The translations under genes and the position numbers were made by a program. A stretch of 64,000 bases of DNA from Prorocentrum cordatum (lineage: Eukaryota), in NCBI GenBank assembly GCA_963575745.1, contig CAUYUJ010000226.1, positions 1-64,000 on the forward strand, read 5' to 3'. This document shows, one piece after another, positions 9,017 to 62,919 of the stretch. How positions within the stretch are numbered: position 1 is the first letter of the stretch; each line of letters opens with the position of its first letter. A model generated the notes under the pieces. That model saw nothing but the letters and a program-made list of their open reading frames with translations, was not told where the DNA came from and searched no databases.

Positions 9017-9136
9017 GACCCCGCCCTCAGCGCCCGCCTCCTGGACGGCCGCAGCACTGGCGGGGCCCTCGGGGCCGCCGCGCCCCCGCCGCGCCGCGTG
9101 GCGTACGTGCCGGGCTCCTCCTCGCGGCTGTACGAG
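9017..9136 (+). CDS. EamA-like transporter, N-terminal tail exon (DPALSARLLDG...SSRLYE)
   Basis: High-GC3 codons, GAG acceptor and GA donor at 9137. Alternative ends are a CAG acceptor giving start 9000 and a GC donor after 9179, which also keeps frame downstream. Confidence 0.55.
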
Positions 9137-11164
9137 GAGCGCCCCGCGGCCGCACCCGAGCGTCCCGGCTCGCCTACAGGCGCACCACAGAATGTTCCAA
9201 GAACCTCTGGTGTGGTCTGCACGGAATGTTCTCAGAACGTGTCGGGCCGAGACTGTCTTGCGTTGACACGTCGGGCTTATGTTCTGAGAACAAGGGTTGT
9301 GGTTATTGAAACGTCCCAGGGGTCTATCAAGATTTCGTGGAAGGCCTCTAGGGATGCCGGGACGGTCGGTCCCTGCTCAACCCACGGCCGCGCCGCCGCG
9401 GCCTGCTTAGGTTCAGATTCGAGGGTCGAGGATCGATGCGAGGGTCGAGGATCGAAGATCGATTCGAGGAAGGGTCTCTCTGGGGTTGGAGCCGTCTTGG
9501 GGCCTGAGGTGTCCCAGCATTGGTCATGGCCAACAGGAAGGGTGGGCAGGTCGAGGATCGGGTCTCAGAGGAGGCAAAGGTACCCAGGCATGATCGCGTC
9601 GTTGGAAACAATTAAATGGGAGGCTTTTGAAATTCTGCCTCTGGGGGCCCTCGCCGGGCCTCGGGACCATCTCACAACGGCTCAGGATGAAAACCCGGTC
9701 CCAGGGAATGGGTCGAGACCTCTGGGCGTCGACGTTATGAACAAAAACCTGACATCGGGGGACCGCTTCCCTTCCCTCCGTTTCCCCGCTTCGGGCCTTC
9801 TGGAAGGCCTCCGTCGCCATTGCTGGATTCGCTTCGAAGCCTTGGTCAGGACGCACCCCGGGAGAGGCCCGGGGGGGTAGCGGTCTCGGTGCCTTTTGGT
9901 CCCCCCCCCACGGCCGGAGCCCAGGACTTGGGGCCCAGTAGGAAGATCAAGGTGCCGCGAAGTCTTTCCCAGACTCCAAGCTTCCCCCTTCTCGTACAGT
10001 CAACGCGCCTAGTAAGGACCCGCGCCTTCGTCTAGGGAGCAGTGGGGGCGCGCGTCAAGAAACCATCTGCTTTTCGTCAGGGTATCCCGGGTTTCTTCGC
10101 TCCGCGCGCTGCGCGGTGACTTCCCGCAGCCGTTGAATAAGTTGATGCGTTCACGGTACTCCAGGCTTCCCCTCGGGTGCGCGCGGGTTTTCAGGGGTGT
10201 GTTTCTTGCGAGGGTTCCTTGCGGCCGCGCCTGGACTGTACTCTTGTGTCCTTGCCTCTGCGGCCCGTCCTTTGCCGTTTTCACTGGTCTCCAGCTGCCC
10301 GAAAGATCCCAACCTCTGGGCTCCAAGGGCCCTGCGTCCCTACCACCCGTCCTCAATACACGTTGCCACTGTATTTCAGCTCGCTCCTCCTCGCGGCTCC
10401 TCCTCGCGGCTGCACGAGAAGCGCCGCACGGCGGCGCCGCCGCGGCCCGGGAGACTCCCCGACCGAGGGCATTCGTTTGGGGGCGGCCAAAATCTAGATC
10501 GCGCCGCGTCGCCGATGCATCGCCGATGCATCGCCGACGCATCTGCGATGCGGCGGCGATGTGGAGCCCGATGTCCTCCACGTCGAAGGCGCCAATGCAT
10601 GGCCGACCTCAGCGATGCGGCGCGGTCCTCCGATCCCTTCCACTCGGACCCCATCTAGGAGGCCTCTGTCCAGCCACGAGGAGGGGAGACTTCACGGCCA
10701 CGTGCCCTGAGGTCCCCAGATGTCGTGGTCCCTCTTCTCACTTGAACTCGCCTCATGGCCCGTCCTGTGGCCGCGCACGTGCCTCGGGGCACGATCTGCT
10801 CCCCCCCTCGTGGACGCTCCCCCTCTTGGGCGCTACCCTTGCGGGGGGCGCTCGTCGGCGCAGAAGGGGGTCCAGGGTCGAGCTGCTCATCATTGAGCCC
10901 CAGAGACGTGCGGGGGTTTTCCCTTGCTCCTGGGCGACTTCTCGCCTCGGGGTGCTTCCCAGCAGCGCTGCGCCTCGCCGCGGGCGGTCCATGGGGCGCC
11001 CGAATCGTCCCGACCGGCCGCCGGGAGGCCCGAGTTCTGGCCCGGAAGCCTCCCGGGGAGTCGAGGGCCGAGGTGGATGAAGGCCACGCCACGCCAGCCC
11101 GCGCGGCCGCGCCAGCACGCGCGCACGCGCGGGGCCTGGAGTGGCACGGAGCGGCCGGAGGGAG

Positions 11165-11187
11165 GGAGGACTGCTTCACGGCTCGAG
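11165..11187 (+). CDS. EamA-like transporter, candidate micro-exon (GGLLHGS-R)
   Basis: GAG acceptor and AG|GC donor. Phase 0 in and phase 2 out match the neighbouring exons. Support is phase and composition only. Confidence 0.4.
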
Positions 11188-11739
11188 GCACGGAGGACGC
11201 AGGGGATCAGCATCCTCGGTCTCGAGCCAATGCTGCCCCGAGGGTGACCTCGAGGGCGCGAAGCTGTTCGCGCCTCGCGCTTCGCGGTTCGGCCCCGATT
11301 CCTCCCCATCCTCCTCTTCTCCCCTGGGGGGGCGGCGCGAGAGCGCGGAGTTGTTCGCGCTGCGCGAAGCGCGAAGTTTGGCGATCTTATTGCCCGCGCC
11401 GCCGCCACCGCCCACTGCCCTCGGGCGCTCCGTGCGTGTTGCCCATCCTCACAAGTGGTCGCCACGGAGCCCTCCTTGCGCCGCCCTGCGCCGCTGTGCG
11501 GCGCTGCCTTCGTAATAATGGAAAGTCATGGTGCAGTGCAGCACAGGGGTTGTCATCTGCATGGCGTCGCTTACGCACATGGTCTCGTGCATGTGGTGCT
11601 TGGTCGTTTCGCATCGTCCTTTGCGCGCCACCCATTGCGTCGAACCAAGCACGATTGTTGATGTATTTATGTATTGATTTATTTATCTTTATTTATTTAG
11701 TAATTATATATATAAATCAAATGGGGATGAGGTTTCGTC

Positions 11740-13900
11740 GTTTCTTTGATTATCGAGGACGCCCACGGCGAATCACCGCCGCGCACTGCCTTTTTGGAAT
11801 CGCCCATGTGGCCGAGCGTTGTGGCAATAGCTCTGCCAAGCTATCGGACCATGTTTTCTTCCAGCCGTTGTGGAAACCCTTCGGGGAACACTTGGGGGAG
11901 GATGGCGGGGAAGATCAGGAGGTGAAGGAGGAGGAGGAGGAGGAGGAGGAGGAGGAGGAGGAGGGGGCATCTTGGGAGCCTCTTGGGGCACTCTTGGGGC
12001 CTCCTGGGAGCTTCCTGGGAGACTCTTGGAGGCATCTTGGGGCCTCCTTGGGCCTCTTGGAGGCCGTTGGGGGCTTCTCGGGAGCCTCTTTGCCCGTCTT
12101 CGGGCGTTCCTGTCCTGTCTGACGCTGTCGGTAACCGTCTTGGGGGCCTCTCTTGGCCGACTCGGGACCCTCTTGGGGTGCTCCAGGGCCGTCTTGGAGG
12201 ACATCTTGGGCGTCTTGAAGGCCTCTTGGGCAGTCTTGGCGCCCTCTTGGGGCCGTCTTGGGGGCCTCTTGGGCCGTTCTGGGGCCATCTTGGAGGCCTC
12301 TTGGGCGATCTTTGGGGGCTCTCGGGCCGTCGAATGGCCGAAAATAATCAAATGCTAAAATCATGCAAAAAGGGAAATCAACGATGTTTGCCTCTCTGGG
12401 CCTTCCTGGAGGCCTTCTGGGGGGGTTCCTGGGCCGTCTTGGAGGCATCTTGGGGGGCCTCTTGCGGACCCTTTGGGCCGTCGTAAGCCATCTTGAGGCC
12501 ACCTTGGGCCGTCTTGGGTGCATCTTGGGGCCATGTTGGAGTCTCTTGGGGCCACTGTGGCCGTCTTGGAGGCATCTCGGAGGCCGCCTGGAGACATCTT
12601 GGGCGTCGGAGAGTCCATCTTCAGCCGCCTTGGGGATTTTTTTTTTCGTGGACGTCGTTGTTTGCGGTCCTCTCGGGTGGCGGGCGCGTTGGGCCGAGTC
12701 AACCGGGGGAGTTCTTTTGGAAACAAGTCAAAAACCCTGGATTGCAAAAAAACCCTTCGAAGGATTGCAAAAAAACCTGGGCGAAGGATTGCAAAAAACC
12801 CTGGTTTTTTTTGCAATCCTGGGTTTTTTTGCAATCCCTGGGTTTTTTTTTGCAATCCTGGGTTTTTTTGCAATCCTTCGCTGTAGGATTCAGCACGCCG
12901 GGCGCTCCTGTGATAAGACCACAGGGGGCGGCGGATCGAGGACGCCTACGGCGAATCACCGCCGCCCCCTGCCTTTGTGGAAGCGCCTATGTGGCCGAGC
13001 GTTGAGGCCAGACCTGCCAAGCTATCGGACCATGTGTTCCCCGAATCGGTTTGGACAGCCTTCGGGGAACACGTGGGTATCTTGAAGGTCATCTTGGCCG
13101 CCTGGAGGCCATTTTGACCATTTCGGGCCTTCTTGGAGGACGTCTTGGAGCCGTCTTGGGCGCTTCGTGGGCCGTTCTGGGGCCATATTGGAGGCCTCTT
13201 GGGCGATCCGTGGGCGATCTTTGAGAGCTCTTGGGCCGTATCGGGCCGTCGGAAGGCCGAAACGAAGCAACTGTCAGAATTCTTCAAAAGCCTACGGGAA
13301 ATTACCATTTTGGGCATTTTCTGGCCTTCCTGGAGGCCCTCTTGGAGGCCTCTTGGGCCGTCTTGGGCCAGCTGCGAGCCACCTTCGGCCATCTTGGTGG
13401 GCTCCTGGCCCGTCTGACGCCGTCGGAAGCCGTTTCGGGTGCCTTTCTGGGCCGACTTGGGGCCCTCTTGGGGTACACCATGGCCGTCTTAGAGGCCATC
13501 TTGGGCGTCTTCGAGGCCTCTTGGGCAGTCTTGGCGCCCTCTTGGGGCCGTGTTGGGGGCCTCTTGGGCCGTTCTGGGGCCATCTTGGAGGCCTCTTGGC
13601 GATCTTGGGGCGACCTTGAGGGCCTCTGGGGAAGTCTTGGGCCGTCGGAAAGCCGAAAAGGCACAAATGCCAAAATCCTTCAAAAACCACTGGAAAATCA
13701 ATGATTTTGGCCTCTGCGGGCCTTCCTCGAGGACCTCTTGGAGCCCTTTTAGGCCGTCTTGCCTCTTGCGGGCCTTTTGGCCCGTCTTAGACCATATTGA
13801 GGCCATCTTGGGCTGTTTTGGATGCATCTTGGGGCCATCTTAGCCGTCTTGGAGGCCATCTTGGCTGTCTTGGAGGCATCTTGCAGGCCATCTTGGGCCA
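11740..13900. repeat. Low-complexity CTCTTGG-rich (GGGCCTCTTGG) dispersed repeat, two related blocks
   Basis: Degenerate 10-11-bp units. The leader GAGGACGCC.ACGGCGAATCACCGCCGC...CTGCCAAGCTATCGGACCATGT is shared at ~11755 and ~12938. Confidence 0.8.
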
Positions 13901-13914
13901 TCTTCGTGATGTTA

Positions 13915-15520
13915 CCTAACAGCGAAGACTGATAGGGTCAAAATAAGCATCATGACTCCCCAGGGGGGTCTTGGCGGCATCCAGACAGGGATCCGCGGAA
14001 ATCGTTTTCAGCAAACAGTTACGCACTTCGTTGTGTTCGAGGTCCCAGAACTCATTCTGAATGCCCAGAGCCAACTGTAGACCATTTCGTGCTCTTCGAG
14101 TTCCCAGAACTCCATTCCCGGGCCACATTTTGAATGCCCGGAGCCAACTGAAGGCCACTTCGTGCTCTTCGAGTTCCCAAAACTCCATTCCCGGGCCACA
14201 TTTTGAATGCCCGGAGCCAACTGTAGGCCACTTCGTGGTTTTCGAGTTCCCAGAACTCCATCCCTGGGCATGATTTTGAATGCCCGGAGCCAACTGTAGG
14301 CCACTTCGTGGTCTTCGAGTTCCCAGAACTCCATTCCTGGGCATGATTTTGAATGCCCGGAGCCAAGTGTAAGCCACTTCGTGGTCTTCGAGTTCCCAGA
14401 ACTCCATTCCTGGGCATGATTTTGAATGCCCGGAGCCAACTGCAGGCCACTTCGTGGTCTTCGAGTTCCCAAAACTCCATTCCTGGGCCACATTTTGAAT
14501 GCTGAGGCAGGCTGAGGCTGAGGCTGAGGCAGGCTGAGGCTGAGGCAGGCTGAGGCTGAGGCCGAGGCTGAAGGCAGACTGAGGCTGAGGCTGAAGCAGG
14601 CTGAGGCTGAGGCTGAGGCAGGCTGAGGCTGAGGCTGGCTGATGCTGAGGCAGGCTGAGGCTGAGGCTGAGGCTGATGCAGGCTGAGGCTGAGGCAGGCT
14701 GAGGCTGAGGCCGAGGCTGAAGGCAGACTGAGGCTGAGGCTGAAGCAGGCTGAGGCTGAGGCTGAGGCAGGCTGAGGCTGAGGCTGAGGCAGGCTGAGGC
14801 AGGCTGAGGCTGAGGCTGAGGGCTGAGGCTGAGGCGAGGCTGGCTGAGGCTGAAGGCTGAGGCTGAGGCTGAGGCAGGCTGAGGCTGGCTGCAGGCTGAG
14901 GCTGAGGCTGAGGCTGAGGCTGATGCAGGCTGAGGCTGAGGCAGGCTGGCTGAGGCCGAGGCTGAAGGCAGACTGAGGCTGAGGCTGAAGCAGGCTGAGG
15001 CTGAGGCTGAGGCAGGCTGAGGCTGAGGCTGAGGCAGGCTGATGCTGAGGAGGCTGAGGCTGAGGCTGAGGCTGAGGCTGATGCAGGCTGAGGCTGAGGC
15101 AGGCTGAGGCTGAGGCCGAGGCTGAAGGCAGACTGAGGCTGAGGCTGAAGCAGGCTGAGGCTGAGGCTGAGGCAGGCTGAGGCTGAGGCAGGCTGAGGCT
15201 GAGGCTGAGGCTGATGCAGGCTGAGGCTGAGGCAGGCTGAGGCTGAGGCCGAGGCTGAAGGCAGACTGGGGCTGAGGCTGAAGCAGGCTGAGGCTGAGGC
15301 TGACGCAGGCTGAGGCTGAGGCTGAGGCAGGCTGAGGCTGAGGCAGGCTGAGGCTGAGGCTGTGACTGCGACAGCCGTTGCCACTGCGACTGTCATCGCG
15401 AATTCGACTGCGACTGCGAGAACAGCATAATTCTACAACTGGATTCTCATCTGAATCTTAAGGGGAATGCTTCCAGATATGCTCCTACACGTCGCTGTTA
15501 GGTTGCTTTGCCGGGATCAT
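13915..15520. repeat. Composite repeat copy 1: 73-bp minisatellite + (GAGGCT)n + shared tail
   Basis: A 73-bp period (TGAATGCCCGGAGCCAACTGTAGGCCACTTCGTG...) occurs at 14131, 14204 and 14277. The hexamer tract is at 14501-15360 and the tail GCCGTTGCCACTGCGACTGTC...GCTTTGCCGGGAT follows. Confidence 0.9.
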
Positions 15521-15996: not shown

Positions 15997-17546
15997 CGTA
16001 ACAGCGAACACTGATAGGTCTCTTGTGGGGTCCAAAGAGAGCGTCTTGACTCCCCAGGGGGGTCTGGGCAGGATCCGGAGATGCCGGGGAAAACCGGGGA
16101 CTTTCCATTTTCATTGCCATGAGCCACATTTTGACTGCCCGGAGCCAACAGAACAACATTCCCAGGCCACATTTTGAATGCCCGTAGGCCACTTCGTGTT
16201 CTTCGTGCTCCCAGAACACCATTCCCAGGCCACATTTTGAATGCCCGGAGCCAACTGTAGGCCACTTCGGGTTCTTCGTTTTCCCAAAACACAATTGCCA
16301 GGCCATATTTTGAATGCCCAGAGCCAACTGTAGACCACTTCGTGTTCTTCGTGTTCCCAGGACACCATTCCCGGGCTAATTTTGAATGCCCAGAGCCAAC
16401 TGTAGGCCACTTCGTGTTCTTCGTGTTCCCAGAACACCACTCCTGCACCATATTTTGATTGCCCGGAGCCAACTGCAGGCCACTTCGCAATCTTCGTGTT
16501 CCCAGAACACCAGTCCTGTGCCATAGTTTGAATGCCCGAGCTGAGGCAGGCTGAGGCCGAGGCAGGCTGAGGCCGAGGCAGGCTGAGGCTGAGGCTGAGG
16601 CACGCCGAGGCAGGCTGAGGCTGAGGCTGAGGCAGGCTGAGGCTGAGGCTGACGCAGGCTGAGGCTGAGGCTGAGGCAGGCTGAGGCTGAGACAGGCTGA
16701 GGCTGAGGCTGAGGCAGGCTGAGGCTGAGGCTGAGGCCGAGGCAGGCTGATGCAGGCTGAGGCTGAGGCCGAGGCAGGCTAAGGCTAAGGCTGAGGCTGA
16801 TGCTGTGGCAGGCTGAGGCTGAGACAGGCAGAGGCTGAGGCTGAGGCAGGCTGAGGCTGAGGCAGGCTGAGGCTGAGGCCGAGGCAGGTTCAGGCCGAGA
16901 CAGGCTGAGGCTGAGACTGAGGCTGAGGCTGAGGATGAGACCGAGGCAGGCCGAAGCTGAGACAAGGTCAGGCTGAATGGGGGGGAGGGAAGGGGGGGGG
17001 AGGAGGGGAGGCTGAGGCAGGCTGAGGCCGAGGCAGGCTGAGGCCGAGGCAGGCTGAGGCTGAGGATGAGGCAAGCCGAGGCAGGCTGAGGCTGAGGCTG
17101 AGGCTGAGGCTGAGGCAGGCTGAGGCTGAGGCAGGCTGAGGCTGAGGCTGACGCAGGCTGAGGCCGAGGCAGGCTGAGGCGGAGGCTGAGGCAGGCTGGG
17201 GCTGAGGCCGAGGCAGGCTGAGGCTGAGGCTGAGGCAAGCCGAGGCAGGCTGAGGCTGAGGCTGAAACTGATGCAGGTTGAGGCATCCGTAGGAATCCAT
17301 AGCAAGCCTTAGGAATCCGTAGGCATCCTTAGGAATCCGTAGGCATAGTTAAGCATCCTCAGGGCTCCTTGGGAATCCTTAGGATTCCAATGGATCCTAG
17401 GGCCGTTGCCACTGCGACTGTCATTGCGAATGCGACTGCGACTGCGAGAACAGCAGAATTCTACAACTGGGTTCTCACCTGAATCCTAAGGGGAATGCTT
17501 CCAGATATGCTTATACACATCGCTGTTAGGTTGCTTTGCCGGGATA
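15997..17546. repeat. Composite repeat copy 2 (same three modules)
   Basis: Same TAACAGCGAA.ACTGATAGG start, related minisatellite at 16125-16540, (GAGGCT)n at 16540-17283 and same tail at 17402-17546. Confidence 0.9.
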
Positions 17547-20571: not shown

Positions 20572-22301
20572 GCGGTGCGCCACAGTAGGGGGAGGCGGAC
20601 GGTCCTCGGTTCTCGGGCGTTCTCGTCGGCTCTCGGCGGTTTGCCGGCGCAGGGACGCTCTCCCGCAGCTGCCCCTTTCTGGGGCGCTCGGGGGTGCCCG
20701 GGTCGTCCCGACCGTCCGCTGGAGGTCCGAGCTGTGACCCGCAAGACACCAGCAGAGGCCGAGGAGTCTTCGCAGCCTGCTCCGAAGACGGGGTCGGCTT
20801 CTCAGAAGTCCGGAGGGCTCCCGAGAAGCCCCGCCACCGCCTGAGGAATGCCGGGCCCCCCTCACTTCCTTCCCCAGTGCTGGCCGCCAAGGCAAGGCTT
20901 GCGCCGCACGCCTCACGCGGACGCTCTCCGAGCGATCGGGGCCACTTCCGACCCTAGCATGTTGGACGGCAGCGGCTTCAGTGACGAGTCCTCGAATGTG
21001 GGAAGGCAGGGAGGCAAACTGTTGTAAGCGCCGATGCCCGACGTGGAGGAAGCCTGTCATTGTCAGGAGTGGAAACACCACAGACACAACTAATCGCCGA
21101 TTCCAAGGGGAGTATGGGAAAATATGGGAAGTGGGAGGGGAAACGAAATTCCATTACATATGGTGAAATATTGTGAATCCTGGGACTAGTGTGTATTTAT
21201 GTGTGTGTCCCTGGGCCCCTTCATACATTAGCTGCGCATTACGATACCATTGGCCCCTCCCACATGCCCTGTCACCCGGAGTGGCTCCCCGCCTCTTTTC
21301 GAGCCGCAATCCATCGCCTTCGGGAATTTGGGCTCGAGCGCGTTGCGCGCATGTCTTGGCCAAGGGGGTTATCGGATCGACCCTCCGCTTGAACCTATAC
21401 ATACGCAGCCTACTTTACATACGAACAACGTACTGAGCGCAGCAAGCCCGCCATGGTCAGAAAGGCGCTCGACGTGGACCCGGCCGTCCTCTCTGTCGAG
21501 AAAGGCCCGGCCGCAGCAACACAGTGGGCTGCCTGGAGGAGAGACGAAGGGAGGCAAGGTGGAGGGAGGAGCAGGAGGATGCAGGAGGCACGACCGCCTA
21601 CGAGCCGATTCGCTGCGATTTGATGCGCCGATTCGCTGCGACCGCGATCCCGATGCGTTTCGATGCGCTCCGAGTCGCCGGCATCGGCCAGGGCCAGCAG
21701 GAGCCGGGCGCGGCGCTCCCACTTCGAGTCGAGTGGGGGCGATGCGTCGGCGACCCGATCCGCTCCCGACCTGATCGGACTCCGCGGTTCGATCCCGACC
21801 AAGCCCGCGAGAACGGCCGAGAAGCGAGGGGAGGGAGGGAGGACGAGGATCAGAGGAGTGGGGCCTGTGGGCGTGGGCCACCCCCGAGGCTGCCCCCGAG
21901 CCTCCCGCGGGCTGGCCCCGGAACGCGTGGTTGCCACGGTGCCGCCCAAGGGCCGTGCCATCCTCCTCCTCCTCCTCCTTCTCCTCCTTCTCCTCGTCCT
22001 CCTCATCCTCATCCTCGCCCTCCCTCCCCCTCCTCCCTCTTCCTCCTCCTCATCCTCTTCCGCCTCCTCCTCCTCCTCCTCCTCCTCCTCCTCCTCATTC
22101 TGCCACTCCTCCTTCTCCTCCTCGTCCTCCTCCTCCTCTTCCTCCTCCTCATGCTCCTCCTCCACCCCCTTTCTTCTCCCTCTCCTCCTTCTCCTTCTCC
22201 TCCTGCTTCTTCTCCTCCTCCTCCTCCTCTTCCTCCTCCTCCCCATCCTCCCTCCTCTCCTCCTCCTCCTCCTCCTCCACCTCCTCCTCCTCCTCCTCCT
22301 C

Positions 22302-31614: not shown

Positions 31615-31676
31615 GCACCTACGGCACCCTCGAGGGGCCCCAGGAGGGCGCCGACCTCAAGCCGCCCGTCCTCCTG
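31615..31676 (+). CDS. EamA-like transporter exon (G-TYGTLEGPQEGADLKPPVLL)
   Basis: GAG acceptor, G|GC donor and very high GC3. It joins in phase 0 to VHLAL at 45446 to give the lead-in to TM1. Confidence 0.7.
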
Positions 31677-45445: not shown

Positions 45446-45553
45446 GTGCACCTCGCGCTCTGCAGCGGCTACGCGCTCTTCGGCGGCGGCGCCATCGTGG
45501 GCAAGTTCGGGGTGCACGGCTCCAACCCTATCATGTTTGAGCTCGCCAGGGAG
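45446..45553 (+). CDS. EamA-like transporter exon, TM1 to start of TM2 (VHLALCSGYALFGGGAIVGKFGVHGSNPIMFELARE)
   Basis: Matches the EamA/WAT1 N-terminal pattern (hydrophobic helix-GG-IVGK...NP..F...R). GAG acceptor and AG|GC donor. Confidence 0.88.
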
Positions 45554-45593
45554 GCTCTCTCCCCCCCCCTTTCTTCGAAGTTGGAGCAGAACA

Positions 45594-49692: not shown

Positions 49693-50784
49693 TATGGTAT
49701 GGGAGGCTCCCGTGGGCTGCCACCGAAGGGATGTGGGTGCAGGCGCCTCCCCGCCCAAGCCGGGAGGGCGCACAGCGAAGACGCCCGGGCGGGTGGTAGT
49801 GCAGGGCGGCTTCGTTGGGGAATGAAAGAAAGGGCCCTGCCCTGAGATCCTGGCGACCCTGTTTTAACAGGGGTTATGTCGACCCCTATCCCAGGCTTCG
49901 TGGGGATTCCGAATGGACCAGAAATTTGGGGCCTAACCCTGGGATATACGATGGGGGGGTGTCCATTCTCGATAGGGGTGCGTCCGAATAGCCCCCTTGG
50001 GGTGTATCCCAAGGTTTTCCCATTCTTCTGAGCGGCCAGACTTTTCGGGCGAAACTCGGGGATTGGGGGAGAAACATCGCCCGCGATGTTTGTTTGTTCG
50101 GGCCGGGCGGCTTCGCCCAGTTTCGGGCCCCGAGACCCTCACATATCCATCGGGCTCGGAACATGACGCAGGAAGATGGGGTCTAGGGCTTCCGTCGTGA
50201 TTTCTCAAGCTGGTTCATTGTTTTGCGAGACGTCGGATCTCAGGGTCAAGGGGCCCTCTGGGGCCCCTGTTGGGCCCCTGTTGTCTCCAAATGAGGCCCT
50301 CAGGGGCCCCCTTCGAGGGCTTTTCCCTCTCCCCCCCCCCACGTGTGTCACCCCCTCCCTTCCTCCCTCCTTGTCCTCCTTGTCCTCCTCCTCCTTGTCC
50401 TCCCTCATCCCTCTTCCTCCCCCTCCTTGTCCTCCTCCTCCTTGTCCCTCCCCCCCTCCTTGTCCTCCCTCCTCCCTCTTCCCCTCCTCCTCCTCCTCCT
50501 CCTCCTCCTCCTCCTCCTCCTCCCTCCCTTTCTGTTCCTCCTCGTCCTTGCCTCCCTCTTGACGACCGCCCGCCCGCGACGCCGAAGCCGGGGCCCCTCT
50601 CGGCTCAGGAGGGGCCCGCAGGGCAGCACGCGTGCATGCCCTCTTCCCCGCCCGGCGGGGGCCGGCCCCTCTGCCGGCGGGGCGCGTCGGAGTGCGGGCG
50701 CCTCCCCGCCCGGGCCGGGGGGGCGCGCAGGGAGGGCGCCGAGCTCCTCGGCGCCCAGGGAGGTGCTGCTTTCCAGGGGAAGCA

Positions 50785-50855
50785 GGCGACGACGATGACG
50801 ACGAAGACGACGCCGGCGGCCGCGGCGACGACGGCGACGGCCGCGGCGACAACGG

Positions 50856-52085: not shown

Positions 52086-52165
52086 TCCATCAGCGTCTGC
52101 CTCCTGCTCGCGGCCGTGTGCTTCACGGGGCAGGCCCTGCTGCCGGAGCGCGCGGACGCGCCCAG
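52086..52165 (+). CDS. EamA-like transporter exon, TM2 and loop (SISVCLLLAAVCFTGQALLPERADAP-R)
   Basis: GAG acceptor and AG|GA donor. Phase 0 in and phase 2 out match both neighbours, and the exon encodes a hydrophobic helix. Confidence 0.85.
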
Positions 52166-53117: not shown

Positions 53118-53284
53118 TAGGGCGACGATATCTATACATATCCACTGCTCCTGGCCAGGCCAATCCTGGGCCCAGGAGCGGTGTATACGCCCTCCTGGCT
53201 TGGCCAGGGAGGCATCTACACCGCTCCTGGGCCCAGGATGGGCCTGGCCAGGAGCAGTGGATATGCATAGATCTCGTCGCCCTA
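53118..53284. mobile_element. 167-bp foldback element with TA ends
   Basis: TAGGGCGACGATATCTATACATATCCACTGCTCCTGGCCAGGCC... pairs with ...GGCCTGGCCAGGAGCAGTGGATATGCATAGATCTCGTCGCCCTA. Confidence 0.88.
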
Positions 53285-54019
53285 TCCTCGGAGTCGATCC
53301 TCGGTCAGCGGCCTGGCTCCTCCAGGAAGCGCCCGCTCACCGCAACGGGCGCGCCGGCGGACGGTCGTGGCGCGGGCCCTTTCGCGGCGCTGCCGCGGCC
53401 CCGCCCTGCTGCTGCAGACTGCAGAGGCAACGCGGCGGCCCTGCAGCGGTGTTCCTGCAGACCCCACCTCTGCCTCCTCCTCCTCGTCTTCTTCCTCCTC
53501 CTCATCTTCTTCCTCCTCCTCCTCATCTTCCTCCTCCTCCTCCTCCTCCTCCTCCTCATATCCTCCTCCTTCGATCCTCCTCCTCCTCCTCCTCCTCCTC
53601 TTTCCCTTACAGGAGGAGGAAGAAGATGGGGGCGACCTCAGGAGAGGGAAGAATAGGAGGAAGAGGAGGAGGAGGAGGAGGAGGAGGAGGAGGAGGAGGA
53701 GGAGGAGGACAGGAGGAGGAGGAGGAGGAGGAGCAGGAGGAGGAGGAGGAGGAGGAGCAGGAGGAGGAACAGGAGGAGGAGGAGGAGGAGGAGGAGGAGG
53801 ACAGGAGGACAGAAGGAGGGGGAAGAGGAGGACGAGGAACACGAGGAGGAGGACGAGGAGGACGAAGGAAGATGGGGACGAGGACGAGGAGGACGAAGGA
53901 AGATGGGGACGAGGACTGGCGACCGCGAGGAGGGAGGGGCATCGAGCCGCCCACTCCCGCGCGCCGCCAGCGTCGGGGGGGGGGGCTGGCAGACCCGCTC
54001 CGTGCGCGCGGGCGGCGAG

Positions 54020-54056
54020 GATACTGCTCGGCGGCCTGTCCTTCTTCACGAACCAG
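54020..54056 (+). CDS. EamA-like transporter exon, TM3 (R-ILLGGLSFFTNQ)
   Basis: GAG acceptor and AG|GC donor. It supplies the NQ preceding the ..F.GLK motif typical of WAT1-like DMTs. Confidence 0.85.
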
Positions 54057-55250: not shown

Positions 55251-55284
<34 letters not shown>

Positions 55285-55357
55285 TGCCAGCGCTTCTCGG
55301 GCCCTCTCCCCCCGCTGCTCCCTCGACGGTGCCTGGTGCCCCTCCGCGCGCGCCGAG

Positions 55358-55440
55358 ATCGCCTGGTTCGTCGGCCTGAAGCTGGCCGACCCGGTCGCCG
55401 GCTCGGCCTGGCAGGCCTTCCTGCCCATCATGACCACCGG
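55358..55440 (+). CDS. EamA-like transporter exon, TM3-TM4 (IAWFVGLKLADPVAGSAWQAFLPIMTT-G)
   Basis: EamA core pattern (F.GLK...P...SA.....PI.T). GAG acceptor and G|GC donor. Confidence 0.9.
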
Positions 55441-55479
55441 GCTCCGACCCCCTGCCGCGGCCCCCCTCCCCATGCCCTG

Positions 55480-55684
55480 GACGCCCGAAATGGGTACGGA
55501 AAGAATGGGTACAATGCCCAACAGCAGTTCCTGTTCATTTTGAACAGGACTCGCTGTCCGCGCCGCCGCGGCCTGTGTCCAGTCGAGTCAGAGGGCCCTC
55601 TGCCCAGCAGCGGCCGCTGTTGGTTTGGGACAACATTTGTTGTTGGGCACAGTACCCATTTTTTCCGTGCCCATTTCGGGCGTC
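55480..55684. mobile_element. ~205-bp MITE-like element with ~45-bp TIRs
   Basis: GACGCCCGAAATGGGTACGGAAAGAATGGGTACAATGCCCAACA pairs with TGTTGGGCACAGTACCCATTTTTTCCGTGCCCATTTCGGGCGTC. Confidence 0.85.
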
Positions 55685-58319
55685 GAAACATGCAGAGAGA
55701 AAGAGAGCGAGAGAGAGAGAGGACGCTCCAACAAAAATTGGAGCGGCGGGTGTGGGGCCGCTTCTGTCCCGAGGGGGCCCTCGCCGGGCCTCGGGACGAA
55801 CAACGGGCCCCAGGGAAGTGGTCCAGACCTCAGGGGACCACGCGGCGACGCAATTGGAGCGGCCAGATGTCTGGGTCGGCAGCGATTTGTGGATCGCTCC
55901 CGAGCCGGGTCTCGTTTCGCACTCAAGTTTCCATCGCAGCAGGGTTGTGTTGTCGTCTTTGAGCCGTTCACAGTCGGGCCGGAGAGACGAGGAACGATCA
56001 GTAAGGAGCGACGCCCCTTCCTTGGCCCCCAGAGCGCATGTGTGTACAAGGTTGGCCACTGGAGGAACAGCCATGGAAGGACCGAAGGAACATCGCTCCC
56101 CTGCCGACCCACAGTCAACACGCCAAGCAAGGGGACGCGTCTTCGTCTAGGGTATATATATATATATATAAAAGCTAAAATAGCTGTGCCTGGCGATGAA
56201 AAAAAAACATTTTTTTACATCAAAAATAAGTAAAAAGCTGTGCCAGGCAATTTTCACTGGTCGCCCGCCGCCCAAAACGTCCCCATTTCGGCCTCCAAGG
56301 GTCTTGCGTCCTTACTACTCTTCCTTGACCCACGTTTTGACTGCAATCAATCCCTCATGCCAGCGCCTTGAGTCAAGGCGCTGGCATCGCGGCGCGCCCT
56401 GGCATCGCGTGCCCTCGTCCCACGAGGTGGAGGCACACAGCAGACGATGACCATGGCCAAGCTGTCTCGAGATTTCGTCGATGCCGATCGTGGTCTTGGT
56501 CCATCAGTGAAGGAAAAGCCACCCCGATCGCGATATTTATCACGTGCCAAACGGCCTTGGGCGCTTATTTGACAGCCCAGCCCTGCTCGATTCCTTCTTT
56601 GAATGCGTTTATCAAATTGCTTCGCTTGTCGGGGTACTTATTCTGTGAGTGGATTATCTGCTCTCCAGTCAATGCTTGCCGTCGCCATTCGCGGAGATGA
56701 TCCGGAAGTTGACTGTGAACAAGATGCACGATAACCATGGCCGACACCAGCATTTCCGCCCTCAGTCTTGGTCATGGTCCTCTTTGTATCCCCCTCCAAC
56801 ATTTCCGCCTTCAGTCTTGGCCACGGTCCTCGTTGTATCTCCCTCCATTCGGCGCCGGGATTTCCGCGTTCAGTCCTGGACATGGTCCTCGCTTCGCCCC
56901 CCGCCATTCCCGCTCCCCCGACCACTTGCCCTGTGCGGTCGTCTGTGGAGCGGCGTTTCCTGCCGATGCCCGCCGACTCTGTGTCGCTGCCGACTCTCGG
57001 CCGGTGCCTGCTGGTTCGGTGTCTGGATCGATGTGGCTCGATGTTTAGGTTCTTTGTCAACTCCTTAGTTGGTCCTGAGCAGCGCCTGGGGTGGTTTCTT
57101 TCCGCTTTCCATGTGCTCTTGCCTCGACTCAGAACGGCACCCCAGAAAGTGGTCGTCGGGCAGGCATCATTGTGATGCCGATTTTACCATGTTTGGGGAA
57201 TGTTTTCTAATGCGTGAACGCACTGCGTTGCATTTCTTTACATACTGCTCAGATGAGGAGGAGGAGGAGGAGGAGGAGGAGGAGGAGGAGGAGGAGGAGG
57301 AGGGGGGAGGGAGGGGCGGGAGAGACTAACGCTACGATCACATTCGGTCTAAGTGTGCATGACGTCAACAAAAGCACAAGGAGAGAGATTGAGGAGAGAG
57401 ATGGAGGAGAGAGATGGAGGAGTAGGACGAGGAGGAGGAGGAGGAGGAGGAGCAGGAGGTAGAGGAGGAGGAGGATGAATGACTGGGGCGACCACGAAGG
57501 CGGGGAGCGCGACGGCGAAGACATGGAGGATGAGGAGGAGGAGGAGGAGGAGGAGGAGGAGGAGGAGGAGGAGGAGGAGGAGTTGGAGGAGTTGTAAGAG
57601 GAAGAGGAGGAGCCGCGGCTAAGGCCAGCCATTACGCAAGCGCCAGCTTCTGTACACAGACGGTCGGGCAGCGGGGATGGTGCCGGGGAGGCGGGGGGGA
57701 GCAGGGCAGACGGGCCCGACACAGGCGAGCCCATGATATCCTGGCACGCCTCACAGCGCTCCCCAGCACTTTTGCTGCTTTCAACATACCGCGTGCTCCT
57801 TGATTTTTGAGTAGCATCTGCGGAGGTTGGATGCATATTAGATGGGACAAGGAACACACAACATTATATCGGACCCCGTGAACTACAGGGAGTGGCCCCA
57901 CCGCCTTTCAGCTTCCGCTTTCTGCTTTCCGCTGCCGAGTCGTGGCCCGGCTAAGAGTTTGGACGCTTTTTGACCCGTTTCACGAGGCCGCTGACCCAAA
58001 ACAGTATCCCCACCAGCCCATTAAGAAGCCCTGCCTATGAACGCTGACGGGAAAAAGGGACGAAGAGACACATCTAGGGAAACAAAGCGAGCAACCAGGG
58101 TGAACCGAGAGACCTTTGGGAGCAAGGGGTGGCCTTGGAAGGCCTCTTCGGGCCATCCCTGGGGGCCGCGTGGGTGTGAGGGGGCTGAGGAGGAGTAGCA
58201 GGAGAAGGATGAGGACGATGAGGGATAGGAGGACGAGGGCGCGGATGAGGACGAGGACGAGGAGGACGAGGACGAGGACTAGGATGAGGACGACGCGAGG
58301 ACTCATGGAACCATCTGGA

Positions 58320-58760
58320 GGTATTCTTGCGGCTGCTGCTGCTGCTGGTGCTCTCTGGGAGTTTGGGGTGCCCTCTTGGAACCCGCTTGGTAACTCTGGA
58401 GGGCTTTTTGGGGATCATCTTGGAGGCCATCGATTACAGGACGGGGGGGTCCCCAACTCAGCCCCCCTCTCAGGAGCCTGCAACCCGCTTCTTTGGGCTC
58501 TCTTGGAGCGCTCTTGGGCGCTCTTGGAGCGGTCTTAGGGGCCGTTTGGAGCATCTTGGGAGCCATCTTGAGCCAGCTTGCGCTATGTGAGCCATCTTTT
58601 AGATCATCTTCGGATCTCTGAGGCCGCTCGAGGGCCTTTGGGGGGCCTCTCGGGTGCCTCTTGGGGCTCACTTGGGACCCTCATGGAGGCCTCTTGGGGC
58701 TCTCTTGAGGCTCTCTTGGGAGCCCTGAAGCGCCTCTTGGGGCCATCTTCGAGGCTATCG
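58320..58760. repeat. CTCTTGG-rich low-complexity repeat
   Basis: Same motif family as 11740-13900 and 27760-29310. Confidence 0.75.
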
Positions 58761-58931
58761 CTCAAAGGAGGGAAGCTCCCGATCGAGGTCCCCGCCTCGG
58801 GGGCCACGATCCTCGTGAGGGGTGTCAAAGATTGGCCCTCCCAGGGGCTGATGAAGGGCCCTCCAACCATCCGCGACCCCCCCCAAAAAAAGTCCAGGGA
58901 AGGAGGTAGGGAGAGGGGTCAAGACCCCCTC

Positions 58932-59420
58932 CCCGCCCGCAAGCCGTCTCGCTCACTCCCACCCGCCCTCCCAACACATACGTAGCACCCGAGTCTGGCC
59001 CGAGCCTCAGCATATTCAGCAGTCGTCTTTGGCTGGCAGCTACTGGGGGCCAATCCGCCGCCGCCGCCGCCTCCGCCGCTGCCGCCTCCGCCGCTGCCGC
59101 CGCCGCCGCCCGCCGCTGCCCGCCGCGCCGCCGCAGCCGCAGCCGCCGCCGCCGCAGCCGCAGCAGCCGCAGCCGCAGCAGCCGCCGCCGCCGCAGCCGC
59201 CGCAACCGCCGCCACCGCCGCGTGTACTTTGTATTGATTTTTGATGGGGATGGTGGGGGGAGGCCGCATCGGGTTGGCTGCGCATGCTCAGAATTTGGAG
59301 GCCGAATGTGTTTTGTTTGGTTTTTTCACGTGGTGGTGGTTGGGGGGACCCTCATGGTTCCTGGTTGGCTACCAGTCAGTCGCCTGGGGGAGGGGGGTGC
59401 TTATTGATAGGGAACAGTGA
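58932..59420 (+). mobile_element. Dispersed repeat family C, copy 2, with a (GCC/GCA)n interior
   Basis: Ends are homologous to 46270-47103. Confidence 0.75.
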
Positions 59421-60839
59421 TACACCCTTCGCCGAAAAGGGGAATGGGGTTTTTGGATGATGAAAACAAGCAATCCCGTTAGAACACCTACGCCCAGAAG
59501 GCTGGTGGGATTCTAGGCCGGACCTCGCGTATACCAGCCTCTCAACAAGAGTTTACCTTGCAGCCTTAATTCGAGCGCCAGCGCTTTCCAAACACAACCA
59601 CAGCCTACCATCGTCCAGCCAGTACCGATCTGGCTAGTTGATCCGCAAATTTAAGCCAGCCGCTCTGCCATTACGCTCGGGTGGTGCATCTTGCAAATCA
59701 GGATCTTGTCCGCGAGCAGCACTTCTACTAATATTTGCAGGCAGCGGCCATTTTGGCATGTACGCCGGGGGTGAGCTTTGGGGCATACACAGCTGTACAC
59801 CACTTACCACAGTACCTTCTAGTTGCGTTTTCTCATGCGGCTTCACTGTGTTGACCTGTTATTATAATTGCGCCCGGTAGCGCGTTTGTAATGTTCTGCT
59901 GCGTCCCTTGACCAGCTATGGTGGTACTGCACTGTGGGCGAATACATTTAAATGTTTTTTTTTTTTTTCTTCTGGGGGGATCGGGGGAACGGACATTCAG
60001 CCATGTTGGCCTTCGGCGGGAAGGGCATCTGCCATATTGTGGGCCGCCGTCCTCTGCCACCTCCCACCACGCATCCACGCAACGCCATCGTTCAAGCCTG
60101 CTTTCAGCCAGAAGGCCAGCCGATATGTTTGCGCCAGCAGGGCAGCAGGAACTGCCACCATTTTTAGCACGACGCTCAGCGCTGCCGTTTTGGTGGCCAT
60201 CTTTGCATGGAAGGCGAAGGTGGGAGGTTTGGTTCGTTGGGGGTGAGAGTGAGATGGGAGTGCCCTACAGCGTGCCAGCCCAGTCACCTGGAATTGCCGC
60301 TTCGCCGAAGCCTTAGAGGACGATGCAACCCAACATTTGCACGTGCATGCCAACCTCTCCCTCGTTCGGCATCCTTCTTCGTATGTTGTCCAGGTGCGCG
60401 ATGTCGAGCTCATCCCCCCTCCATATCGGCGACGTGCGCCGTCATTGTGCGCTCGTGTGGGCCGCAGCTCTTTACACTTACTCGTTGTATCTCCTGTGCC
60501 GCACGGGTCTGCCGCCTAATTCGACGTACTCCGTCCAGCGGTGCGTTAAGTCGGTACATGTTGTTTGCACCATGTGCCGCGCGAATGGTGCGATCATCAA
60601 GCTTAGATTCTGGCCAACGCCAAGAAGAAGGAGGGGGACGAGGAGGAGGAGGAGGTAAAAGGTAAGGAGCTCTCGTGCTTGAAACCTGATCGGCGCCGAC
60701 ACGCGGGAAACAAAGAGGAGGTGGCGGAGGAAGAGACGGAGGAGGAGGCGAGGGAGGATAACGCGGAGGAGGAGGAGGAGGAAGAAGAGGAGGATGAGGA
60801 GGACAACGGGCAGGAAGTGGCGGATGTGGGAGGTGGAGG

Positions 60840-61420
60840 AGGAGCAGCACCAGCATCCAGCAGCAAAGGTGGTGGTAGCTGGCGACGAGCACGACAACGC
60901 GCGGCCCCCCCGCAGGATCTCCGTCTTCATGGACCAGGTCAAGATCGACGCTACGATCCCAGCCGATCTAAGTTTGCCTAACGCCAACATCAGGAAAAAG
61001 GGGGAGGATCAGAAAGAGGAGAAGGATGAAAAGGTGGAGGAGGTGGAGGAGGAAGAAGAGGAGGAGGAGGAGGAGGAGGAGGAGGAAGAGGAGGAGGGAG
61101 GTGGAGGAGGAGGAGAAGGAGAAGGATGAAAAGGTGGAGGGGGAAGGTGGAGGAGGAAGAAGAGGACAGGGAGGAGGAAGAGGAGGAGGAGGAAAAGGAG
61201 GAGGAGGAGAAAGGGGAGGAACGCGCGGAGAGAGAGGAGGACGGACGTGGAGGAGGGCCAGCAGCAACATCCAGCAACAACGGTCTCGGCGGCTGGCGGC
61301 GCGCACGACGACGGGGGGCGGCCCCCGCAGGCACCCCTTCGCCATGGGCCAGGCCAAGTCTGACGCTACAATCCCAGTCGATCTAAATTTGCCGAGCGTC
61401 AGAATTAGGAACGGGGTGGA
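60840..61420 (+). pseudogene. Two degenerate tandem copies of the acceptor and 5' half of exon 61575
   Basis: GGCCCCC(C)GCAG|G followed by ATCTCCGTCTTCATGGACCAGGTCAAGATCGACGC (60916) and CACCCCTTCGCCATGGGCCAGGCCAAGTCTGACGC (61331), versus the real CTCTCCATCGCCATGGGCCAGGCCAAGATCGATGC. Confidence 0.8.
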
Positions 61421-61574
61421 GGAGCAGGAGGAGGAGGAGCAGGAGGAGGAGGGAGAAGAAGAAGAAAACGAAGAAGGAGAAGAAGAATAAGAAGAAGAAG
61501 AAGAAGAGGAGGAGGAGGAGGAGGAACGGGAGGAAGAAGGACAGGGGTGCGACAACGGAGGCGGCCCCCCGCAG

Positions 61575-61642
61575 GCTCTCCATCGCCATGGGCCAGGCCA
61601 AGATCGATGCGCAGCAGGCGCTGGGCATCATGGTCGCTGCAG
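61575..61642 (+). CDS. EamA-like transporter exon, end of TM4 to TM5 (G-LSIAMGQAKIDAQQALGIMVAA-G)
   Basis: CAG acceptor and AG|GC donor. Phase 2 in and phase 1 out match both neighbours. Confidence 0.85.
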
Positions 61643-62845
61643 GCCCCTCGCGCTGCACCCCGGGTGGCGAACGGATGGGCGCGAGGCGAAACCGACGGCG
61701 GGCCTCAGTATTCGACCTTCGAGTTGTTTTTGCCGTTTTCGGGCAATCTCTGCGGTTTTCCGGCTTCGGGGCGCGCTGCGCAGCTTTTTGACGATGCCCA
61801 GATCATCATGGACGGCCGCAGGAGGACCGAATTCTGACCCGGAGCCTGACGACGAGGATCGTGGAGGAGCGGGCGGGGCTAGGACGAGGATGCATCCGTT
61901 CCAGAACATGCCAAAACGTTTTCGGAGCGTTCCGGATCGCTATGAGAAAGCCTTTGCGCCCGAGACATCCTGCAGAGCCGCCGGATGTCAGAGGCTCTCG
62001 ATTGTGAAAACCGTGCGGCCAGTGCCGCCCACCCACAACGACGATGACCACAATGATCATTACCACGACCGCGGCGACAACGACAATGATGACCACGACG
62101 AGACGACAAACATTTGATGTACAGTTATCTTCGCCCGTGCTTCGGGTTGGGTGGGCGTCGCAGCCCTCTCCACCCCCTTTCGTGGCAGCCTCGACAAGCG
62201 AGGTGGCTAAGAAGGCATGCCCCCCCCCGGGAAGTAGGAGGAAAAGGAGGAAACCGGACGAGGAGGAGGAATATGATGGTGATGGTGATGGCATGCTCAT
62301 CGAAGCGGTGACTGAAGGAAGCAGAAGCCAGAGACAACAAATGAACAAGAAAACCCAACATGTGAATTCAAGTGGCCCGAGCTCGGTCCCGGCCGCCCAG
62401 CGCGAGGAGCAGCTGATGAGGAGGAGGAGGAATACGAGGGGGAGGAGAGGGAGGAGGAGGAGGAGGAGGGGAATAAGGAGGAGGAGGATGAAGATGAGCA
62501 GGAGGGAAAGGAGGAGGAAGAGGAGGAGGAAAAGGAGGATGAGGACGATGATGAGGGGGAGGAAGAGGAAGAGGAAAAGGAGGCGGAGGAGAAGGAGGAG
62601 GAAGAGAGGAGAGGAGGAGGAGGAGGAGGAAGGGAGGGAGGGGGGGAGGAGGAGGAGGAGGTGGAGGTGGAGGTGGAGGAGGTGGTGGAGGAGAAGGAGG
62701 AGGAAGAGGGGAATGAGGAGGAGGAGGAGGGGGAGGAGAGAGGAGGAGGACGAGGAAGAAAACGACGAGGATGACGAGGACGAGGAGGGGGGCGAGGACG
62801 AGGAAGAGGTGGAGGACGAGGGAGAGGAGGAGGAGGCTCTCAGAG

Positions 62846-62919
62846 GCGGCGCGATCCTGATGGTGGTCCTGGACAGCACGGTGTCGCAGGCCTTCGACGC
62901 GGAGACCGACAGCAACTGG
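62846..62919 (+). CDS. EamA-like transporter exon, end of TM5 and central loop (G-GAILMVVLDSTVSQAFDAETDSNW)
   Basis: Completes the EamA TM5 motif GI.VA.GGA.LMV. GAG acceptor. The 3' end is uncertain (GT at 62920 or GC at 62922). Confidence 0.82.

What the first reader, a model, noticed from the sequence alone, without database searches (positions are those of the whole stretch)
9017..62919. Cryptic 54-kb gene: ten micro-exons splice into an EamA/DMT transporter
Seen in sequence: ten exons of 23-120 nt (690 nt, 230 codons) join with matching intron phases and no stop, across introns of 1.2-13.8 kb. Established knowledge: the six exons from 45446 onward give five hydrophobic helices with the motif order of the first EamA repeat of WAT1/UMAMIT-like drug/metabolite transporters. 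Inference: this is one expressed gene of about 1% coding density, and the second EamA repeat lies to the right of the window. The three N-terminal tail exons are less certain and the substrate is unknown.
Basis: partly seen in the sequence, partly recalled or inferred. Interest (0 to 1): 0.7.

Follow-up and report, generated by a model that had tools for sequence, protein, structure and literature searches.

The report
Annotated dinoflagellate EamA transporter gene
The tiny exons are real and encode the first half of an EamA-type membrane transporter of the dinoflagellate Prorocentrum cordatum, but the gene is already in the public annotation, starts at 21453 rather than 9017, and its long introns are normal for this genome.

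Summary
The core of the finding holds. Eight plus-strand exons encode residues 1-188 of a 375-aa protein without a single mismatch: 21453-21504, 31615-31676, 45446-45553, 52086-52165, 54020-54056, 55358-55440, 61575-61642 and 62846-62919. That protein is a Prorocentrum cordatum product, CAK0789378.1, listed in UniRef as "EamA domain-containing". An MMETSP transcript encodes the identical sequence. Pfam EamA matches residues 41-170 at 45.9 bits against a cut-off of 28.2. The structure model has ten long helices and matches only DMT transporters in the PDB.

The N-terminal tail is wrong. The exon at 9017 belongs to a different protein, a CH-domain protein (P0020 residues 607-647). The transporter's start codon is at 21453. 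Upstream of it, the window is colinear with the 5'UTRs of related transcripts and carries an in-frame stop.

All seven introns (1.2-13.8 kb) have GC or GA donors and AG acceptors, as published for this genome (PMC10666404). This is an ordinary, already annotated gene of unknown substrate.

The parts
21338..21452 (+). 5' untranslated part of exon 1 (minimum extent), with an in-frame TGA at 21390-21392
   Evidence: The 5'UTRs of three related transcript contigs (L001-L003) align colinearly with the window up to the ATG; L001 reaches back to about 21338. Translation shows a stop 21 codons upstream of the ATG. The true 5' end and any spliced-leader acceptor were not determined.
21453..21504 (+). 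Coding exon 1 (52 nt coding, residues 1-17 plus the first base of codon 18); GC donor
   Evidence: Exact match to P0001 residues 1-18. The only junction with a G-C/A/T donor and an AG acceptor is 21504|31615. M1 is invariant in 9 of 9 aligned homologs.
31615..31676 (+). Coding exon 2 (62 nt, residues 18-38); AG acceptor, GC donor
Evidence: Exact match; junctions.
45446..45553 (+). Coding exon 3 (108 nt, residues 39-74; helix 1 and the start of helix 2); GC donor
   Evidence: Exact match. The translated frame over this exon (window 45425-45562) retrieved the protein family at 80-89% identity. The end at 45553 is fixed by isoform P0010, which joins 52086 in phase 0.
50636..50785 (+). Alternative first coding exon of annotated isoform P0010 (CAK0789379.1), inside intron 3; joins 52086; GC donor
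   Evidence: Exact match to P0010 residues 1-50, and residues 51-60 start at 52086; donor read. This isoform would lack helix 1 and part of helix 2. It is known here only as an annotation model.
52086..52165 (+). Coding exon 4 (80 nt, residues 75-101); GA donor
54020..54056 (+). Coding exon 5 (37 nt, residues 101-113); GC donor
55358..55440 (+). Coding exon 6 (83 nt, residues 114-141); GC donor
61575..61642 (+). Coding exon 7 (68 nt, residues 141-164); GC donor
62846..62919 (+). Coding exon 8 (74 nt, or 76 nt if it ends at 62921; residues 164-188; helix 5 and the loop after it). The rest of the gene lies beyond the window.
   Evidence: The donor is GT if the exon ends at 62919 and GC if it ends at 62921; this cannot be decided inside the window.
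9017..9138 (+). NOT part of the transporter gene: a lone exon-like piece identical to residues 607-647 of a CH-domain protein (P0020). AG acceptor; probable GC donor at 9139.
   Evidence: 41 of 41 residues identical. Identity stops at 9017 on the 5' side. P0020 carries Pfam CH_2 and CAMSAP_CH at its N-terminus. No other part of P0020 is in the window.

Best explanation
The window holds the 5' two-fifths of an ordinary nuclear gene of Prorocentrum cordatum, or a near-identical strain. The gene encodes a 375-residue, ten-helix membrane transporter of the EamA/DMT kind.

Shown:
- Eight small coding exons between 21453 and 62919 are separated by seven introns of 1.2-13.8 kb.
- Six introns have GC donors and one has a GA donor; all seven have AG acceptors.
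- The spliced product equals residues 1-188 of the annotated protein, which also occurs in a transcriptome.
- This half is the N-terminal tail plus the first five-helix EamA repeat.

Inferred:
- The second repeat lies to the right of the window.
- The protein sits in a membrane and moves a small metabolite by the alternating-access mechanism of DMT transporters.
- The substrate is unknown. The faint resemblance to bacterial amino-acid and carboxylate exporters is only a hint.
- The mRNA starts at least 115 nt upstream of the ATG and is not joined to the exon at 9017.
For: Identity with the annotated protein: P0001 residues 1-188 are encoded letter for letter. The same 375-aa sequence is on record from NCBI (CAK0789378.1, P. 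cordatum), UniRef and an MMETSP transcript.

Coding signal: third-position G+C of the eight exons is 95.2%, against 59-66% G+C in the introns.

Selection: dN/dS is 0.30-0.36 against three related transcript contigs over 182-186 codons.

Splicing in relatives: in three of the four related metagenome contigs (1.4-1.7 kb) the match runs unbroken over residues 1-373/375, and in the fourth over residues 17-375. All are therefore spliced transcripts.

Family:
- Pfam EamA scores 45.9 bits against a cut-off of 28.2.
- 57 of 57 aligned relatives match EamA.
- 538 cluster representatives match at E<=1e-3.
- The AlphaFold model has pLDDT 88.7 and pTM 0.86, with ten long helices.
- The listed Foldseek PDB hits at E<=1e-3 are all DMT transporters: CMP-sialic acid transporter, triose-phosphate translocator, Vrg4, 5i20, LicB, SLC35B1 and PfCRT.
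- A profile of the family hits 5i20_A at E 3e-4.

Gene start: M1 is invariant in 9 of 9 homologs. The UTRs are colinear and there is an upstream in-frame TGA.

Genome context: published values for P. cordatum are 59.7% G+C, mean intron 4,709 bp, mean gene 24,462 bp, donors GC 51.4% / GA 23.8% / GT 24.7%, and AGG acceptors 79.7% (PMC10666404, Table 2 and passages read). Here the donors are 6 GC and 1 GA of 7, and 5 of 7 acceptors are AGG.
Against: - No RNA reads were laid on this window. No sequencing run could be listed, so splicing of this very copy is inferred from protein identity with a transcript.
- The genome is rich in duplicated genes, and an identical paralog elsewhere could be the source of that transcript.
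- Pfam finds only one EamA stretch in P0001. The second repeat is seen in the fold and in paralog P0007 (2 stretches), not by sequence in P0001.
- P0001 and its closest homologs have A at position 149, where 90% or more of 57 relatives have E. I do not know what this means.
- The substrate and the membrane are not addressed by any result.
- The UTR argument rests on transcripts of relatives (82-84% protein identity), not of this organism.
Confidence: 0.93

Rival explanations
1. One reading: a 54-kb gene that begins with the exon at 9017 and adds about 41 extra N-terminal codons through three tail exons before 31615.
For: The piece at 9017-9138 has an AG acceptor, an open frame and a usable GC or GA donor, and lies on the same strand upstream. 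In G+C-rich DNA a phase-compatible path can always be drawn.
Against: - That piece is residues 607-647 of an unrelated 816-aa CH-domain protein. In that protein's transcript-length contig it is flanked by other sequence.
- All 9 aligned homologs start with M at the position of 21453.
- The window is colinear with homologous 5'UTRs for at least 115 nt upstream of the ATG, and has an in-frame TGA at 21390-21392.
- None of the three annotated isoforms has an N-terminal extension from upstream of 21453: two start at 21453, and P0010 starts at an alternative exon inside intron 3 (50636).
Confidence: 0.02
2. This copy is a silent duplicate. The transcripts come from an identical or near-identical paralog elsewhere in the 4-Gb genome, and this locus is not itself expressed.
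For: - The genome is reported to hold many duplicated genes (PMC10666404, passages).
- Paralogs exist: P0007 at 76% identity and P0021 at 47%.
- Several MMETSP variants differ only in the C-terminal half.
- No reads could be laid on the window.
Against: - 188 of 188 codons are intact, and all seven splice-site pairs are intact.
- The annotated models CAK0789377-79 sit on one 663,601-nt contig, and P0010 uses an intron-3 exon that is present here.
- 84.8% of the annotation's genes have transcript support (PMC10666404, Table 2).
Confidence: 0.05
3. The transporter gene is nested, on the same strand, inside an intron of more than 55 kb of the CH-domain protein gene whose exon lies at 9017.
For: One exact exon of P0020 with good splice sites lies 12 kb upstream. 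The 169 residues that follow it in P0020 are nowhere in the 55 kb to the right.
Against: - No P0020 exon lies in the 9 kb to the left either.
- An intron of that size would be more than ten times the published mean.
- The exon's 3' end is itself duplicated 1.3 kb downstream, which fits a region of stray duplicated fragments.
- No P. cordatum annotated protein of 127-2000 aa containing this exon was returned.
Confidence: 0.08

Closest known systems
Prorocentrum cordatum protein CAK0789378.1 (UniRef100_A0ABN9PGR6, 'EamA domain-containing protein'), with isoform models CAK0789377.1 and CAK0789379.1
   Same: Residues 1-188 are identical to the window's spliced product. The alternative first exon of CAK0789379.1 is also in the window.
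   Different: Nothing differs in the part that can be compared. The window lacks residues 189-375.
Pfam PF00892 EamA / drug-metabolite transporter (DMT) superfamily; solved examples 5i20 (which I recall is bacterial YddG), LicB 7paf/7b0k, and the SLC35 nucleotide-sugar transporters
   Same: The domain score is above Pfam's cut-off. The model has ten helices in two sets of five. The fold matches with target-normalised TM-scores of 0.53-0.79.
   Different: Sequence identity to every solved DMT is only 9-15%. NCBIfam equivalogs for YddG and family 2A78 score 22-25 bits against cut-offs of 300 and 230, so it is a member of neither. The nearest relatives are unnamed dinoflagellate and other protist transcripts.
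Plant WAT1/UMAMIT transporters
   Same: Both carry EamA repeats (from my own knowledge for the plant proteins).
   Different: A specific relationship was not tested. No source name for any relative that I looked up is WAT1 or UMAMIT. The language-model neighbours are algal and diatom EamA clusters.
Typical P. cordatum gene structure (Dougan et al. 2023, PMC10666404)
   Same: GC and GA donors, AG(G) acceptors, kilobase-scale introns and high coding G+C.
   Different: The exons are shorter than the published mean (37-108 nt against 240 nt). The introns are slightly longer on average (mean 5.8 kb against 4.7 kb). Only 1 of 7 introns shows the terminal inverted repeat of an introner element.

Membership tests
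EamA (Pfam PF00892) | Match to the family profile above the curated gathering score | tested here: met
   P0001 scores 45.9 bits against 28.2, E 8.7e-12, residues 41-170 on profile positions 5-134 of 135. These residues are all encoded in the window.
EamA (Pfam PF00892) | Two tandem EamA repeats in one chain | tested here: inconclusive
   Pfam reports one stretch in P0001 and two in paralog P0007. The model shows a second set of five helices at residues 186-374. The second half lies outside the window.
DMT superfamily fold | Ten transmembrane helices as two five-helix halves, superposable on solved DMT transporters | tested here: met
   The AlphaFold model has pLDDT 88.7 and ten long helices. 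The listed Foldseek PDB matches at E<=1e-3 are all DMT transporters, and the next unrelated folds have TM-scores of 0.2 or less.
YddG / TIGR00950 (2A78) amino-acid and carboxylate exporters | Score above the NCBIfam equivalog cut-off | tested here: not met
   22.1 bits against 300, and 24.9 bits against 230.2.
Plant WAT1/UMAMIT (nodulin MtN21-like) clade | Closer to plant WAT1/UMAMIT than to other EamA clades in a tree or a reciprocal search | not tested
   No plant reference sequence was fetched. The names of the nearest relatives give no support.
Dinoflagellate spliceosomal introns | Donor G followed by C, A or T; acceptor AG, usually followed by G | tested here: met
   7 of 7 introns: 6 GC and 1 GA donors, all AG acceptors, 5 of 7 AGG. 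Published frequencies are in PMC10666404, Table 2.
Introner elements | Inverted repeat of 8-20 nt within about 30 nt of both intron ends (criterion quoted in PMC10666404 methods) | tested here: inconclusive
   1 of 7 introns (intron 4, 52166-54019) has a 10-nt exact terminal inverted repeat; 0 of 300 random 40-mer pairs reached 10 nt. The other six have 5-7 nt, as in random pairs. I used 40-nt ends and exact matches only, and did not score direct repeats.

The most novel reading that the evidence does not exclude
Partial copies of exon-intron junctions sit inside the adjoining introns at three places:
- the 3' end of exon 3 plus its donor, copied 546 nt downstream;
- the acceptor plus the 5' part of exon 7, copied twice, 244 and 659 nt upstream;
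- the 3' end of the 9017 exon plus its donor, copied 1.3 kb downstream.

The reading is that introns in this genome lengthen by local tandem duplications that copy splice junctions and leave decoy sites. These could feed the many slightly different isoforms reported for this species.
Probability: 0.1. Interest if true: 0.35.

Novelty: already known. Interest (0 to 1): 0.1.

Why it matters
It matters little for biology. The gene is in the public annotation of P. cordatum, has transcript support, and has a structure typical of that genome. The protein belongs to a large transporter family and its substrate is unknown.

The value is methodological. A reader without tools recovered seven micro-exons with non-GT donors correctly from raw sequence. 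It then over-extended the model by attaching a real exon of an unrelated gene. This shows that phase compatibility and open frames cannot decide exon membership in G+C-rich DNA.

Tried and rejected
- Whole-genome search for EamA in the window's own assembly: no genome is held.
- Sequencing runs: no RNA holder was listed for window 53000-62950, so read laying was never called. This is no evidence either way.
- Earlier findings of this scan: nothing by place or by sequence.
- Spliced leader: a recalled 21-nt dinoflagellate spliced-leader consensus was sought with up to 4 mismatches, and its last 12 nt with up to 1 mismatch, in the window and in L001-L004. There were no matches, so the mRNA's 5' end is undetermined.
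- Rfam at gathering thresholds and ARAGORN: 0 matches each in the window.
- Pfam survey of other coding content: of 381 stop-free frames of at least 100 aa, 217 had residue entropy of at least 3.6 bits, and I scanned the 150 longest of these. None reached a gathering score. Three had sub-threshold matches of the low-complexity kind (Mucin, Collagen, BSP_II/HemY_N/FAM176). Short exons of other genes would be missed by this.
- A G+C-periodicity scan for further exons recovered 7 of the 8 known exons (not exon 2) but also gave many mirror-strand and repeat-derived calls. I did not use it.
- Enrichment of exon-edge duplicates: 2 of 9 exons (3 if the weaker exon-3 copy is counted) have a same-strand copy within 2 kb, against 86 of 450 (19%) random segments taken from 9.2-62.8 kb. 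This is not clearly more than background. The first version with 40-nt flanks was swamped by microsatellites: 135 of 200 controls hit.
- PDB by sequence with the 9-sequence profile: no hit at E<=1. The 57-sequence profile found 5i20_A.
- Literature: a search for 'EamA' plus 'dinoflagellate' gave 10 papers. The one I opened (PMC9836089, one passage) only lists an EamA transcript 4.8 cM from a toxin-linked marker in Alexandrium, which is not relevant here. I found no paper on this particular protein in that one search.
Full report
**What the window is.** The 64 kb are 57-65% G+C and full of tri- and hexanucleotide microsatellites and short satellites (116 Tandem Repeats Finder rows). There are stop-free frames in all six frames: 306 of at least 120 aa. 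No whole genome is held for it.

**Checking the observation.** The frame over 45446 reads like the start of an EamA repeat.
- A search with the translated stretch 45425-45562 returned eight proteins of 371-383 aa at 80-89% identity. All carry Pfam EamA, and two are named as Prorocentrum cordatum products.
- Exact-word mapping of the best one, P0001 (375 aa), onto the six frames of the window gave eight collinear plus-strand blocks covering residues 1-189 without a mismatch.
- I enumerated every junction that reproduces the protein. For each of the seven introns exactly one option has a G-C/A/T donor and an AG acceptor.
- The exons are 21453-21504, 31615-31676, 45446-45553, 52086-52165, 54020-54056, 55358-55440, 61575-61642 and 62846-62919. 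The last could instead end at 62921.
- Joined in code, they give 564 nt and 188 codons identical to P0001.
- The introns are 10,110, 13,769, 6,532, 1,854, 1,301, 6,134 and 1,203 nt. Six donors are GC and one is GA (intron 4). Five of the seven acceptors are AGG.
- Exon third-position G+C is 95.2%, against 59-66% G+C in the introns. The coding fraction from the ATG to 62919 is 1.36%.

**Expression and annotation.**
- The exact 375-aa sequence is on record from NCBI (CAK0789378.1, P. cordatum), from UniRef ('EamA domain-containing protein') and from an MMETSP transcript.
- Its 90% cluster holds two further models from the same 663,601-nt contig. P0010 has another first exon, and P0011 has another C-terminus.
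- P0010's first 50 residues map exactly to 50636-50785 inside intron 3, and its next residues begin at 52086. This fixes that acceptor. Its donor is again GC.
- Four metagenome contigs of 1.4-1.7 kb encode relatives at 66-84% identity. In three the match runs unbroken over residues 1-373/375, and in the fourth over residues 17-375, so all four are spliced transcripts.
- Against three of them, the window's coding sequence shows dN/dS of 0.30-0.36 over 182-186 codons.
- No sequencing run could be listed, so I laid no reads on the window itself.

**The N-terminal tail.**
- The nine aligned homologs all start with M at the position of 21453.
- The 5'UTRs of L001-L003 align colinearly with the window right up to that ATG. 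L001 reaches back about 115 nt. The transcripts and the genome part company exactly at 21504, where the transcripts continue with exon 2.
- In the ATG's frame there is a TGA 21 codons upstream, at 21390-21392. The protein therefore starts at 21453.
- The stretch at 9017 was tested separately. The translated 8981-9196 found one protein, P0020 (816 aa, on a transcript-length contig of 2,562 nt).
- Residues 607-647 of P0020 equal 9017-9139 exactly, and identity breaks at 9017 on the 5' side.
- P0020 has an N-terminal CH_2 / CAMSAP_CH domain at 4.4e-29 and is unrelated to the transporter.
- No other part of P0020 is in the window, by exact words of 7 aa or more and by tblastn at E<=50.

**What the protein is.**
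- Pfam EamA matches residues 41-170 at 45.9 bits against a cut-off of 28.2.
- A full HMMER pass over 1.84 billion cluster representatives found 538 relatives at E<=1e-3, 208 at 1e-10 and 36 at 1e-30.
- The ten clusters I looked up are dinoflagellate or other protist transcripts. Their only names are 'EamA domain-containing' and 'DMT-like permease'.
- 57 of 57 aligned relatives match EamA.
- The AlphaFold model built on that alignment has pLDDT 88.7 and pTM 0.86. It has helices at 36-61, 66-87, 96-122, 125-145 and 153-180, all but the first three residues encoded from 45446 on, and five more long helices after residue 186.
- The listed Foldseek hits in the PDB at E<=1e-3 are all DMT transporters. 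The family profile finds 5i20_A at 3e-4.
- NCBIfam equivalogs for YddG and family 2A78 are far below their cut-offs. Language-model neighbours are algal and diatom EamA clusters.
- The protein is therefore a DMT/EamA transporter of unresolved subfamily and unknown substrate.

**Is the gene structure unusual?** It is not unusual for this organism.
- The genome paper reports 59.7% G+C, a mean gene length of 24,462 bp, a mean intron of 4,709 bp, donors GC 51.4% / GA 23.8% / GT 24.7%, AGG acceptors 79.7%, and gene prediction with tools modified for GC and GA donors (PMC10666404; passages and Table 2 read, supplements not read).
- This gene has somewhat shorter exons and slightly longer introns than those means.
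- One of the seven introns (intron 4) has a 10-nt exact inverted repeat at its two ends, the introner-element signature. None of 300 random 40-mer pairs reached that length.

**Surroundings.**
- There are no Rfam families or tRNAs.
- I scanned the 150 longest non-repetitive stop-free frames, out of 381 of at least 100 aa. None reaches a Pfam gathering score. The introns therefore hold no recognisable transposon genes or long exons.
- Partial copies of exon-intron junctions lie in the adjoining introns at three places. Random intronic segments have nearby same-strand copies in 19% of trials (86 of 450), so this may only reflect the general abundance of local duplications.

**Verdict.** The 5' third of the model is wrong, and the gene is already annotated and ordinary for its genome.

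Noticed in passing
window 45536-45555 and 46082-46101: The last 18 nt of exon 3 plus its GC donor are repeated 546 nt into intron 3 (18 of 20 identical). Between the two copies lies a 39-nt imperfect hairpin (45630-45668 / 45694-45732). This could be an insertion flanked by a duplication, or a decoy donor.
   Followed up: partly
window 60906-60951, 61321-61366 and 61565-61610: The acceptor region and the first ~36 nt of exon 7 occur three times; the last copy is the exon that is used. The two upstream copies are 74-85% identical to it and share a different continuation with each other, each followed by GAG/GAA microsatellite.
   Followed up: partly
window 9113-9143 and 10395-10425: The 3' end of the stray CH-domain exon, with the first bases of its intron, is copied 1,282 nt downstream (29 of 31 identical).
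   Followed up: partly
window 9017-9138: A single exon of an 816-aa CH-domain protein (P0020) stands alone: none of that protein's other 775 residues is encoded anywhere in the 64 kb. It is either a stray exon copy or part of a gene with introns above 55 kb that would enclose the transporter gene.
   Followed up: partly
window 507-3473 and 3556-4362: About 3 kb of a 79-nt satellite (roughly 37 units in several sub-arrays) is followed by about 800 nt of (TAGTAG)n.
   Followed up: no
window 14053-15362 and 16184-17265: A composite repeat occurs twice: 5-6 units of a 73-nt repeat run straight into 0.7-0.9 kb of (GCTGAG)n-like hexamers.
   Followed up: no
window 11964-12603, 13481-13904, 27814-29232 and 58642-58756: A recurring family of 11-, 21- and 32-nt repeats of the type TCTTGGGGCC/TCTTGGAGGC occurs here, including a 374-nt unit repeated three times at 28106-29232 (93% matches).
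   Followed up: no
window 37662-38118: Four copies of a 114-nt unit (94% matches) are built from short palindromic GGGGTAACTCGGGT-type motifs.
   Followed up: no
P0001 residue 149 (window exon 7): P0001 and its closest Prorocentrum homologs have A where 90% or more of 57 family members have E. R73 is the only invariant residue of the family alignment.
   Followed up: no
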